A stretch of DNA of 63,572 bases, filler included, from Hausera hauseri (lineage: Eukaryota): the NCBI GenBank assembly GCA_046269625.1. It is 12 parts of 12 records of this genome, joined end to end, with 100 filler letters (N's around TTAATTAATTAA, not from the genome) between each part and the next. Parts side by side here need not be neighbours in the genome. Positions count along the whole stretch, not along the records: positions 5,264 to 9,582 come from JBJURY010637997.1; 11 more parts are not named here. One strand, given 5' to 3'. Shown piece after piece: positions 5,264-9,682 of this stretch. The notes beneath the pieces were generated by a model that saw only the letters and a program-made list of their open reading frames with translations, did no database searches and was not told where the DNA came from. The stretch's first letter is position 1. Each line of letters begins with the position of its first letter. The position numbers and the translations under genes are program-made.

Positions 5264-7022
5264 TGCTGCAGCCGGTCTCTTGTTAGTTTCACCAACAGGT
5301 ATTGAATATAGATAATTTGTGGGTGAAAATGCTACAGTCGAGTTTCTGGACTTCTTGGGGAAAATTGTTACAACATTAATTTTCCCTGGTATGAAAGTGC
5401 CAAAAAGTCAATGATCTTGTTAACAACTGCTTAATGGTTTCAATTTGAAAACGCTACAGTATGTTACCTTTGCCATGAACAGGGCACTAAATTTCTTCGT
5501 GATCACTGCCATGTTACAGGTAAATACTTGAGCTCGGCATGTAATAAATGTAACTTGGCTAGATTGATTATATATAATTTACCAGTCATGTTTCACAATT
5601 TGTGTGGATATGACCTGCATCATATCTCGGAACACGCATTAAGTAAATTCGGAAGTTGGAAGTTAATATTATTCCACAAACAACAGAGAAGATCCTAACA
5701 ATGAATGCAATGATCCTCTGTTCGGGTAAAAAGTCAGTTACTGTTAAATTTCTGGACACTTTGCAGTTTTTGCCAGTTTCACTAAAAACATTAGCTTCGA
5801 ACTTTGATAACTACCCATTGACAGAAACGGCTTTTCCTTCGGATATTATTAAAGGAAGAGGAATTTTTTCCTGCACTGCTGCAAAATCTTTCAACGACTT
5901 GCAGTCTATTTCTGCATTATAATCAAAATTGAATGTATTACTGATACGGATTATGCAGAGGCACAACTATTTTGGCCAAAATATAGTTGTAGCTGACTTT
6001 TAGATTATATGTTAATATACATGAAACTAGATGTATACTTGTTAGGAGATGTATTTAAACGGTTTATAAAGGAGGTTAAGTTGCAGGATGGTTTAGATGC
6101 GGTTAATTTCGTTTGTATTCCTGGTTTGTCTTGGGCCACAGCACTGAAGTCCAGTCGGTGTAAGATTCAGCTTATACAGGATCCTGAAATGTATCAGTTC
6201 TTTCAGTCGGGTATTCGCGGTGGTATGACTTTTGTAAATAAGCGTAGGATTGATTCCGATGAAAGAACCAGTCTCTTGTATATAGATGTAAATAATTTGT
6301 ACGGCTGGGCTTTATTACAACCTCTGCCATTTGCGAATTTGGTATGGATATATGATGAAGACAAAATAACTAGCCTGATTAAACAATTATCCTATATTGA
6401 CTGTGTTACAGAAAAACGGGGTTTAATATTTGAAGTCGACTTAACCATACGGGCTAACAAACATGATAAGTTGTACCAACTGCATTTAGTTCCAGTTAAT
6501 AAATGTTCTCCTAGTTCGAAAGTTAAAAAATTATTGCTTACACATGAGCGTAAGTTTAACTATTTTGTTTACTATCGGCTCTTACTGTTGTACATCGAGT
6601 TAGGCGCTGTAGTTGAAAATGTACATCGGGCTATTGAGTTTGACCAGGGATGTTTTAAGGATTATATCGATCTAAACACTTTACGGACGGCTACAGCAAA
6701 TAATCGTTTTGAAAAAGACTTTTTTAAGCTTAAGAATAACAGCTTATACGGCAAAACAGTTAAAAATCTGCTGAGTAGGTCAAACCTTAGACTGTGCAAT
6801 AATGCTAAAAAGCTAGTTACATATGCTATTAAGGCCAAGTTTAAAGAGAGCATTATTATAGTCGATAATCCGGTTGCCGTTTTCCTCGATAAAGACATAG
6901 TCACCTTAGATAGGCCCTCATATATTGGTCAGGCCCTACTTGATCTATCCAAGTTACGGATGTATGAGCTGAATTATATCGACTTGGAGACGTATATCCA
7001 CCAGTTTAAATGTGAACTTAAT

Positions 7023-8654
7023 TGTGGTGACCACAGCGGCCGGCGCCCTCTGGCATATTTGGTTGGACACGGTCGGATATCCGTTGCCGCCGCGTCGGCC
7101 TCATAGGCGGGCCCCGATTTTCCGCCTCGAAATCACGACATCGGGCCGCATCAAGTTACCCGTTATTCAAGATTATTTGAAAAAAATGAAAAAGCTGGAA
7201 TAGAAAAAAATCTGAACTACTACGCCAATTGAATGAACCCAGACATGTACGCTGTGAATCAAGTCCACCAACAACACCACGTCTTAATCGCAATCCAATG
7301 ATGGGTACTTTAGTTGGTCAACCAACAATACCAAACCAGATTTATCAGAATCGAAAACCCTTTGTTCACCATGCTGTAATTCTGAGTCCCCAAAGTTCGC
7401 CCAGTTCCGAAAGTCAAGACTCGTTGCACAATAATACATTGTGTGGTGGGCTTTTACGGGGAGATTCCAACAATACCGATAAAACAAATCTTGACTTTCA
7501 AGTACATTAAGTAGAATATTTAAAAAAGACAGAGGCAATAGTAAAGATATCAATCTGTCCGGTAGAAGATTAGATATCGGTTCACCAATACCTTCAGCTG
7601 TTACACCGATGAGTAACTTTCAATCATCATATCGTCATCCGTTAGATGTTAACATGAGAGGAACATCAACGACTTTACCAATTCAATTTAGTCATCAACA
7701 GTATTATATTAATCAAAGTGGTAAACAAACAGGTTTTCAGACATAGAGAGATTTACGAAATCATCTGAAGATGGTTGATAGTTTTCATCGAAGCAGTCTG
7801 CAGTATGGTATTTCCGTGTTGAGGAGAGTAAACTATGATAGATAAGAATTGGACAGACGTCGTCATGCTTCACAAATTGAGAACATCGATATACAAGTGT
7901 GGACCCACGATCGTGTTGTCCAATGGTTAAATTTTATTGCATTAAAGGAATATACGTCCAATTTAAAACACAGTAGTCTGCATGGTGCCATTCTTGCTCT
8001 TGACAATGACCTTGATTCAAATTCCATAGCGTTAATGTTACAAATTCCTAGCCATTTTACTCAACTAAGAACTCAACTCGATAGAGAACTTGCTGTCCTT
8101 GTTCAACCGTACCGTTTAGTTGCCTTTTTGACATCTACTGAACATTTAGAAATCAGTAACTATAATCAGACCAGACGATCAGAATATCCTTCAGATGAAG
8201 AATATGAATCAGATCGAGACAAATTTAATTCACTACAAACATGACAGTTTTGCTACCTTCTCATTTTTTGTATTTCAGAAAGCTGTTGATAAAATCATTC
8301 CTCGTAACTTCAACAATTTGCTGTTTAGATTCAATTGGATTTATTTATTATGCAATTTTTGTAATTATGATCTCTTGTTTTATGACATTTTTATCCTCGA
8401 CATGATATTTGTCTCTGCAGCTCTGGATTCTCTCAGAACGTTTGCCGATAAGAATGGTATGCGACTAGATGAGAAAACCAAATGATCTATGATTGATAAA
8501 GACCATGATACATTCTATTGGCTTAAAAAAGTTTTATTTAAATATGGTAAAGGAAATACAAACACAAATTGGCCTTTATAAATTTTGGATTTAATGCCTT
8601 TTTGATTTTAGAATTGATTGTTTTCTATATTTATTGCAAATCCAAATCTCTAAA
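7023..8654 (+). mobile_element. 1632-bp non-autonomous insertion (solo-LTR-like or Pack-type) with a GC-rich 5' cap and host-gene cargo
   Basis: Flanked by TTAAT (7018-7022, 8655-8659); excision restores in-frame PolB CELNIVGSDTDS; starts TGTGGTGACCACA; cap homologous to 10952-11059. Confidence 0.85.
7747..8244 (+). pseudogene. Liprin-alpha C-terminal fragment (end of SAM2 plus SAM3) inside the insertion
   Basis: [70 protein letters not shown] matches the liprin-alpha/SYD-2 SAM repeats; internal stop, no introns seen. Confidence 0.8.
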
Positions 8655-9682
8655 TTAATATTGTTGGCAGTGACACAGACAGTTTCTTCCTTGAATGCCG
8701 TGATGTTGACTTAAAATCACAACTCTTACCGGCAATGATAGCAAAGGAGCAGTTAGATACGTCAAACTATGACAAAAGTGATCCGTTGTACTCGGCTCGT
8801 TTCGCAGCTGTAATAGGAAAATTTAAAGATGAAAGTAAGGGCTGCACTCAAAAACCTAACCAAACCAGTCTTCAAATGCAAGGGCATAAATCTCAAGCAG
8901 ACAGACTTACAGTTTGACAGCTACCTACAGGCTTATAAAGCCGGTTGCAGCACCATGGTGGATGAGGAGCGCATTGGCAGTAAAATCCACCAGCTTATGA
9001 CAATCAGTTGAAAAAAGAAAGCATTGGATCCTTTCGACGACAAACGCCAGTGGATTAACTAGAACAAAAGTGTTGCATATGGGCATTATTGTACAAATGT
9101 GTGATTATATTTTGTGTCAATAAATATTTCACTCTTAACCGTCTTTGTTTTATTAAACATAGTAAATACGTTACATTTTTACTGTTTTAGTTTTGTTTTG
9201 CTAGGACAAAGTAATTTCCTTGTGAGGACGGTGAAAGTATTCTTGTTTCTTTATTAATTGGTAGAGAATTTGCTGCATCATTAGAAACCCAGAATAATTT
9301 ATTGCGCAGTGTCAAATTAGAAAAAAAAAGCAAACAAATTAACAGCAGCTTTCTGCAAGCGAAAAAAAAAGAACCATGACAATAAAAGCATTTTCAGTTA
9401 ATAGCAATACGGTACTAGGAAGTTGAATCAATGACGTTTAAATTTGTCCCTTAATTTAGAAATGTAGATGCAACTTTCTTTACCTGGTTTGTTTCTGGAG
9501 TCAAGAGACACGACACACAGATGTGCCCAATTTTTAAGATAAAGGAAACTTTGCATTTGTTTTGGACCTTATGGGTCTAGGANNNNNNNNNNNNNNNNNN
9601 NNNNNNNNNNNNNNNNNNNNNNNNNNTTAATTAATTAANNNNNNNNNNNNNNNNNNNNNNNNNNNNNNNNNNNNNNNNNNNN

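What the first reader, a model, noticed from the sequence alone, without database searches (positions are those of the whole stretch)
7018..8659. Cargo-carrying insertion with a liprin-alpha fragment splits a Polinton PolB at a clean 5-bp TSD
Seen: PolB reads TGT GAA CTT AAT, then a 1632-bp insert, then TTAAT ATT GTT GGC AGT GAC ACA GAC AGT. Removing the insert and one TTAAT restores CELNIVGSDTDS in frame. The insert starts TG, has a GC-rich cap and encodes no transposase or RT. It holds a Ser/Pro-rich coding fragment, an intronless liprin-alpha SAM fragment and AT-rich DNA. Its 3' end is TCTCTAAA rather than CA, so it is decayed or non-canonical. Inference: a mobile unit inserted by an integrase-like enzyme that moves host gene pieces, either a cargo-laden solo LTR or an animal analogue of Pack elements.
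Basis: partly seen in the sequence, partly recalled or inferred. Interest (0 to 1): 0.8.

Follow-up and report, generated by a model that had tools for sequence, protein, structure and literature searches.

The report
Retrotransposon cap carrying liprin mRNA scrap
In a probable flatworm, a 1.6-kb piece made of a short, highly repeated cap and a dead, uninterrupted back half of a host gene sits inside another mobile element between a perfect 5-base duplication; it is likely the leftover end repeat of a retrotransposon family that fills its ends with host messenger RNA.

Summary
The insertion is real. TTAAT flanks a 1632-bp insert, and sister Polinton copies in two sequencing runs skip exactly these 1637 bases. 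The first 110 nt are a repeat about a thousandfold deeper than the interior. The same cap recurs in the next contig (79% identical). It starts at the same TG, ends at the same base and is followed by a different gene piece (PI3K). The cargo is not two genes. The Ser/Pro piece and the SAM piece are collinear parts of one flatworm-type liprin-alpha, with SAM1 missing, and are followed by a stop codon and UTR-like DNA up to the right end. It crosses four inferred intron sites without a break. No terminal inverted repeat and no high-copy 3' tail were found; a tail under about 30 nt is not excluded. Best reading (0.5): a solo LTR of a Gypsy-type family whose LTR body was replaced by host mRNA, with a decayed CA end. 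That the cap is an LTR head is inferred, not shown here. A tail-less unit integrated directly (0.2) would be the novel case. This copy is dead; its interest lies in the family.

The parts
5402..7022 (+). 5' part of a decayed Polinton/Maverick-type protein-primed PolB (target of the insertion); frameshifts and stops upstream of 5997
   Evidence: Pfam DNA_pol_B_2 E 7e-18 and an Endonuclease_7-like zinc finger; X1 depth 2e4-5e5
7018..7022 (+). left copy of the 5-bp target-site duplication TTAAT
   Evidence: joint 7017->8655 with 5 ambiguous letters in X1 and X4
7023..7132 (+). 110-nt GC-rich cap starting TGTGG; high-copy repeat; likely the head of an LTR
   Evidence: depth 23,747 at 7055 in X1 (113 contigs show the common letter) against 5.7-21 in the interior; 79% to copy 2, with identity falling from 9/10 to 3/10 at 7133; no Rfam match near its gathering score; no stable fold, z -0.02 and -0.58
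7133..7222 (+). unassigned stretch between the cap and the first liprin match
   Evidence: no BLAST hit among 169 fetched proteins; moderate repeat depth in bin 7136-7279 (X1 105, X4 13.7)
7223..7453 (+). liprin-alpha linker region (the Ser/Pro-rich fragment)
   Evidence: BLASTP to liprin-alpha of Lytechinus E 2.7e-4, Macrostomum 6e-4, Lingula 0.011, upstream of the SAM hit in the same proteins
7454..7740 (+). low-complexity S/P/Q-rich sequence, probably liprin linker, ending at an internal deletion joint where SAM1 and the first half of SAM2 are missing
   Evidence: no hit of its own; 191 residues lie between the two hits in Lingula against about 96 codons here; homology starts sharply at 7741
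7741..8244 (+). liprin-alpha SAM2 second half, SAM3, C-terminal tail and stop codon; two internal stops; flatworm type
   Evidence: tree 95/96 with flatworm rows, vertebrate grouping rejected with p-AU 0.0056
8245..8654 (+). AT-rich, T-rich sequence, likely the 3' UTR; ends TCTCTAAA; no recognisable LTR tail
   Evidence: GC 0.29, T 0.40, no AATAAA; X1 depth 12-21 up to 8575; no second copy in the window
8655..8659 (+). right copy of the target-site duplication
   Evidence: X1 contig 8431-8682 with 0 differences
8657..9090 (+). 3' part of the same decayed PolB
   Evidence: matches the paralogue directly after the segment matched by the left flank; X1 depth 6.6e4-1.2e5
10951..11059 (-). second copy of the cap, in the next contig
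   Evidence: BLASTN E 3e-20, 79% over 110 nt; alignment
9683..10950 (+). cargo behind cap copy 2: decayed class I PI3K catalytic-subunit fragment (RBD, C2, start of helical domain), antisense to the cap, running to the contig end
   Evidence: Pfam PI3K_C2 6e-18, PI3K_rbd 1e-4, PI3Ka 0.004; p110-alpha E 3e-14

Best explanation
The 1632-bp piece is a real insertion with a 5-bp target duplication, built from a high-copy 110-nt cap and the 3' half of one flatworm liprin-alpha gene, and it is likely a solo LTR of a Gypsy-type retrotransposon whose LTR body was replaced by host mRNA. Inferred steps: (1) During reverse transcription the first cDNA jumped onto the 3' end of a co-packaged liprin mRNA instead of the element's own R region. 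(2) It copied the UTR and SAM region, skipped SAM1, and switched back to element RNA at cap position 110. (3) The chimeric LTR was duplicated and integrase inserted the whole element into a Polinton. (4) LTR-LTR recombination left one LTR. (5) A very short right end decayed, and one C-to-A change would turn a terminal CA into the AA seen. Shown: insertion, duplication, cap repeat, the same joint at 110 in two copies, and single-gene sense cargo ending in stop plus UTR-like DNA.
For: Empty sites skip exactly 1637 bases in two runs. A 5-bp duplication and a TG start are integrase hallmarks (PMC2939329 passages). The cap is about 1000-fold deeper than the interior. Both window copies start at the same TG and lose identity at the same base, with unrelated cargo behind. 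Copy 2 abuts gag-tail-like sequence of a Gypsy relic in reverse, as a second insertion would (the knuckle was read by eye, Pfam gave no hit). The cargo is sense, collinear and runs through four positions where short database ORFs start or end: of 50 hits, 5 start at residue 97, 5 at 129-130, 6 end at 149 and 11 at 189-190. Gypsy relics with RT, RNase H and integrase are in the window. Other liprin copies differ by 8%, so decay of a 2-nt end is plausible. Unchecked earlier notes on this genome describe the same layout; these are leads only.
Against: The cap was not seen after a PPT or the insert end before a PBS; only two copies are in hand. The right end is not CA. Depth shows no high-copy tail: the bin holding the end is 0.126 of the next bin in X1 against 0.14-0.30 in runs with little or no cap. 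Tan et al. state that integrase needs 15-20 bp at each terminus. The cargo of copy 2 is antisense, which a simple jump onto mRNA does not give. The parent gene was not found. Two 92%-identical X1 contigs also cross three of the four sites between them (7740-7939, 7869-8099), so the parent may itself lack these introns. Three sequence look-ups did not link this cap to the caps in earlier notes.
Confidence: 0.5

Rival explanations
1. Tail-less unit: a cDNA with one element end (cap) and one end taken from the host mRNA's 3' end was integrated directly by integrase, so cap-headed mRNA pieces move without a second terminal repeat.
For: UTR-like DNA runs to the duplication with no high-copy tail. 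Overexpressed Ty1 integrase inserts foreign DNA with 5-bp duplications when only TG...CA is present (PMC2939329 passages). An unchecked note reports another tail-less unit with a perfect 5-bp duplication (e1-9272303).
Against: The same paper reports that changing the terminal dinucleotide abolished integrase-type events, and this end is AA. A tail under about 30 nt would be invisible.
Confidence: 0.2
2. Non-LTR route: the cap is the 5' head of a SINE- or LINE-like transcript that read into or was spliced to host mRNA, and the unit was inserted by target-primed reverse transcription.
For: The cap is GC-rich, at the 5' end and followed by sense mRNA 3' sequence; the insert ends in AAA at an AT-rich target.
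Against: There is no poly(A) beyond three A, no AATAAA, no tRNA, 5S or ribozyme match and no fold. Both copies are full length at TG. The cargo of copy 2 is antisense.
Confidence: 0.1
3. An ordinary cargo-bearing LTR whose recognisable tail was removed after insertion by a deletion or by repair filling.
For: The insert has at least one internal deletion and the locus is old and decayed.
Against: The deletion would have to stop exactly at the first base of the duplication, which is intact.
Confidence: 0.1
4. Pack-type DNA transposon that captured genomic DNA.
For: 5-bp duplications occur in some DNA transposons (recalled), and cargo lies in either orientation.
Against: The terminal inverted match is 6 of 20, none of the 25 longest inverted repeats listed joins the two ends, and the cargo is uninterrupted at inferred intron sites. 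Pack-TIRs are defined by flanking TIR sequence (PMC8277862 passages).
Confidence: 0.05
5. Assembly chimera.
For: The contig is short, the assembly mixes two organisms, and this contig ends in what looks like host-fish DNA. The left junction is not crossed by any listed piece.
Against: A chimera would not be expected to leave a 5-bp duplication at the site that empty copies define. A zero-difference X1 contig crosses the right junction by 28 letters.
Confidence: 0.04

Closest known systems
LTR-mediated retroposition in metazoans (Tan et al. 2016, PMC5131818; abstract, sections 5 and 10 read)
   Same: Partial, exon-only mRNA pieces fused to LTR-element sequence by template switching; multiple switches; one family with a fixed switch site; secondary amplification.
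   Different: There the mRNA replaces part of the internal ORFs and both LTRs are present. Here it follows a 110-nt cap and runs to the right end, with no recognisable tail.
BARE-2 of barley (as summarised in review PMC13317346; passages read)
   Same: Foreign sequence entered the LTR region itself through abnormal template switching.
   Different: The donor was another retrotransposon (Wis-2), not host mRNA, and it is one fixed event rather than changing cargo.
TRIM-mediated gene acquisition and maize Bs1 (PMC4717578 passages; PMC5131818 section 10)
   Same: A small non-coding LTR-type unit carrying exons without introns.
   Different: TRIMs have two terminal repeats; this insert has no direct terminal repeat.
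Pack-TIR / Pack-MULE (PMC8277862 passages)
   Same: A bounded non-autonomous unit with a target duplication and host-gene cargo.
   Different: No terminal inverted repeats here, and the cargo looks RNA-derived.

Membership tests
Solo LTR of a Ty3/Gypsy element | 4-6 bp target-site duplication | tested here: met
   5 bp; empty sites
Solo LTR of a Ty3/Gypsy element | 5' end TG | tested here: met
   TGTGG in both cap copies
Solo LTR of a Ty3/Gypsy element | 3' end CA | tested here: not met
   ends TCTCTAAA, one substitution from CA
Solo LTR of a Ty3/Gypsy element | homology to the LTR of a full element, next to PPT or PBS | tested here: inconclusive
Solo LTR of a Ty3/Gypsy element | repeat along its whole length, including the U5 end | tested here: inconclusive
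   cap high-copy, interior 1-3 times base depth, no tail signal; a tail under about 30 nt cannot be seen
LTR-mediated retrocopy (Tan 2016) | intron loss relative to the parent gene | tested here: inconclusive
   uninterrupted at four inferred intron sites of other animals; parent gene not found
LTR-mediated retrocopy (Tan 2016) | retrocopy internal, flanked by element sequence on both sides | tested here: not met
   element-type sequence seen on the 5' side only
LTR-mediated retrocopy (Tan 2016) | microsimilarity at the switch points | not testable with these tools
   needs the parent mRNA and the native element
Pack-TIR / Pack-MULE | terminal inverted repeats | tested here: not met
   6 of 20
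LINE-mediated retrocopy or SINE | poly(A) or simple-repeat tail; structural-RNA head | tested here: not met
   three A only, no AATAAA; 5 Rfam matches, all far under their gathering scores and outside the cap
Polinton/Maverick (target) | protein-primed PolB | tested here: met
   PF03175
Polinton/Maverick (target) | integrase, capsid, ATPase and TIRs on the same element | not testable with these tools
   the contig is 4319 bp and holds PolB only

The most novel reading that the evidence does not exclude
A retrotransposon family in a flatworm needs only a 110-nt cap: the other end of the integrated cDNA is supplied by whatever host mRNA was copied, so cap-headed, tail-less gene pieces insert with clean 5-bp duplications and shuffle host coding sequence across the genome.
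Probability: 0.2. Interest if true: 0.8.

Novelty: new variant of a known kind. Interest (0 to 1): 0.5.

Why it matters
In the published cases I read, host-mRNA capture by LTR elements puts the cargo inside the element. Cargo in the terminal repeat, behind a fixed joint, would be duplicated in every cycle, survive as solo copies and supply the element's own 3' end. That would make a high-throughput exon-shuffling route in a high-copy family. This locus adds an independently defined empty site, a measured cap boundary and cargo that runs to the very end. It therefore makes the integrase end requirement directly testable by counting termini. The copy itself is dead.

Tried and rejected
No whole genome is held, so cap copies, termini and duplications could not be tabulated. 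No RNA holder was listed. A finer read-laying on the insert could not be obtained, so the tail question rests on 144-bp bins. The cap motif gave 2 metagenome matches, both GC-rich contigs (64-65%) that diverge right after the 24-mer and were rejected as chance, and 0 viral matches; genome contigs was not scanned. Rfam and folding gave nothing for the cap or the end. Word-indexed protein searches gave 1 hit for liprin and 0 for PI3K. The HSP70 search did not fix the taxon; the top normal-length row was Dugesia, 83% over the whole query. My first reading, that cap and Polinton sit in a fish genome, was dropped: in X3 and X4 the 14 listed PolB pieces have depth 2-44 (13 under 17), against 33-37 for their long contigs at 9171-9339, and the cargo is not vertebrate. 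Helitron, piggyBac and Kolobok end patterns (recalled) do not fit. The 117-row tree was a quick, unfinished search; the claim rests on the 21 named rows, which left the other hits out, and the cargo is a long branch there. Paper searches listed no report of host mRNA filling the LTR in an animal; only listings were seen, and most subscription papers are not held. Searches gave nothing used.

Full report
Setting. The window is 12 short contigs joined by 100-base spacers; the finding lies on contig 5264-9582. No whole genome is held. Five runs hold part of the contig and four were laid, all as assembled contigs. X1 (share 0.47) may be the source sample, so it is not independent. Depth from contigs is not a copy number and is used here only as an order of magnitude.

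The insertion is real. TTAAT stands at 7018-7022 and 8655-8659 around 1632 bp that start TGTGG and end TCTCTAAA. The repeat is exactly 5 nt, with a chance of about 0.006 at one given junction. The flanks are a decayed protein-primed PolB. Translated separately, they match consecutive segments of a paralogue at 39535-39906. PolB is a very high-copy family in X1 (depth 2e4-5e5 against 6-21 in the insert). Eight of the 15 joint rows shown skip this site, and the exact 1637-base skip with 5 ambiguous letters occurs in X1 and X4. One X1 contig matches 8431-8682 with no difference, crossing the right junction by 28 letters. No listed piece crosses the left junction; 48,021 rows were not shown.

The cap is a repeat with a fixed end. 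At 7055 X1 depth is 23,747, X2 166, X3 5 and X4 0. A second copy lies at 11059-10951 on the minus strand, 79% identical over 110 nt. Both start at TGTGG. Identity is 5-10 of 10 per block up to 7132 and 3, 5 and 1 of 10 after it. Behind copy 2 lies a decayed class I PI3K fragment in antisense, including an uninterrupted 270-codon frame. In front lies Asn/Arg-rich, gag-tail-like sequence of a Gypsy relic related to contig 14404-22329 (the knuckle was read by eye, Pfam found nothing). The other end of unit 2 cannot be placed; the cargo runs to the contig start. The cap has no Rfam match and no unusual fold.

The cargo is one gene. 7223-7453 matches the liprin-alpha linker (E 2.7e-4 to 0.06 in several liprins). 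7741-8121 matches SAM2 (second half) and SAM3 of the same proteins at 46-59%. Between the two hits Lingula has 191 residues and the insert about 96 codons, and SAM1 is absent, so there is an internal deletion at about 7740. The frame has two internal stops and ends at 8244; 410 nt of AT- and T-rich sequence without AATAAA follow. In a 21-row tree the cargo sits with 12 flatworm rows against 8 others (95/96), and grouping it with vertebrates is rejected (p-AU 0.0056). It also shares a C-terminal PYR with 6 of the 12 flatworm rows. It is a long branch, so only the broad placing holds. Among 50 short database ORFs, alignments start at residue 97 (5) or 129-130 (5) and end at 149 (6) or 189-190 (11), which I read as exon edges; the cargo crosses all four. 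Against a firm RNA origin: the parent gene is not in hand, and two X1 contigs 92% identical to the cargo are also continuous over 7740-7939 and 7869-8099. They may be sister cargo copies or an intron-poor parent. Depth is 5.7-6.7 over 7280-7567 and 12-21 over 7568-8575, so the 3' part has more copies than the linker.

The right end. Nothing up to 8575 is high-copy. The bin 8576-8719 is 0.126 of the next bin in X1, the run richest in cap, against 0.145, 0.297 and 0.198 in X2-X4. The left bin shows the expected excess (0.048 against 0.029-0.036). The terminal inverted match is 6 of 20.

Mechanism. The layout is cap, sense mRNA 3' half, stop, UTR-like DNA, end. This is what a first-strand jump onto a host mRNA 3' end, followed by a return to element RNA near the LTR head, would give (inference from the standard scheme of reverse transcription, recalled). 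Tan et al. describe such switches and state that integrase must recognise 15-20 bp at each terminus. A Ty1 study found TG...CA sufficient under overexpression and necessary (passages). A clean 5-bp duplication therefore argues that the right end was acceptable to integrase when it inserted: either a short decayed tail (best reading, 0.5) or a host-derived end (0.2). Antisense cargo in copy 2 is not explained by this route. That the cap is an LTR head rests on TG, the 5-bp duplication and unchecked notes from other windows, whose caps I could not match by sequence.

Organism. The contig's last 412 bases behave differently. 9171-9339 is identical, or one base off, in 7-14 kb contigs of X2-X4 at depth 12-37, whereas 13 of the 14 listed PolB pieces in X3 and X4 have depth under 17. 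I read this as a host, probably fish, carrying a repeat-rich parasite. The window also holds a teleost-like L1 (likeness recalled). The join near 9170 may be an assembly error or a real capture; it does not touch the insertion.

Verdict. This is a dead copy of what looks like a family that loads host mRNA behind a fixed cap: a new variant of LTR-mediated retroposition, not found in the four paper searches named. It fails the CA test for a solo LTR and the two-sided test for a Tan-type retrocopy, so it is filed as working like these, not as a member. Interest 0.5.

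Noticed in passing
window 9171-9582: Polinton DNA passes into sequence that is identical or one base off over 9171-9339 in long contigs of three other runs (likely host fish), while X1 shows almost no cover beyond about 9300: an assembly chimera or a host-DNA capture.
   Followed up: partly
window 14404-22329: Decayed Gypsy-type element with a Monjiviricetes-type fusion gene (Pfam E 5e-35) placed upstream of protease, RT and RNase H.
   Followed up: partly
window 11060-14303: Relative of that element (about 67% identity) whose matches jump from position about 450 to about 5070 of the longer contig, so the block holding the fusion gene is absent here.
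   Followed up: partly
window 31221-38146: Several unrelated coding-like pieces (cadherin-like, exonuclease-like; recalled likeness, no clear Pfam hit), then AT-rich DNA, about 290 nt ending in CA plus two bases, a tRNA primer-site-like motif at about 36654 and gag. It may be a second cargo-in-LTR family with a longer tail, unrelated to this cap.
   Followed up: partly
window 22430-26390: Long unassigned ORFs, then a GC-rich patch at about 24120-24215 with a primer-site-like motif, then a gag-like frame: the same cargo-before-gag layout.
   Followed up: no
window 7136-7279: Bin depth is 105 in X1 and 13.7 in X4 although X4 has no cap depth at 7055; an unexplained short repeat or low-complexity match.
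   Followed up: no
window 46880-53169: Teleost-like L1 element (CpG-depleted contig, o/e 0.39) next to a Polinton-like ATPase fragment at about 52600-53130 (likeness recalled; no Pfam hit).
   Followed up: partly
window 26491-31120 and 38247-42309: Two further decayed PolB copies, 31-58% identical in protein to the interrupted one over its 5' part.
   Followed up: partly
window 1-5163: Intact intronless HSP70 (651 aa) beside a transposase-like relic; the last about 85 bases of the contig repeat its first bases.
   Followed up: partly
window 42410-46779 and 54444-58931: Two different 31-bp satellites, 141 and 145 copies.
   Followed up: no
window 59032-63572: Gypsy RT-RNase H-integrase relic followed by an extra coiled-coil ORF region; no copy of the cap at its 3' end.
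   Followed up: partly
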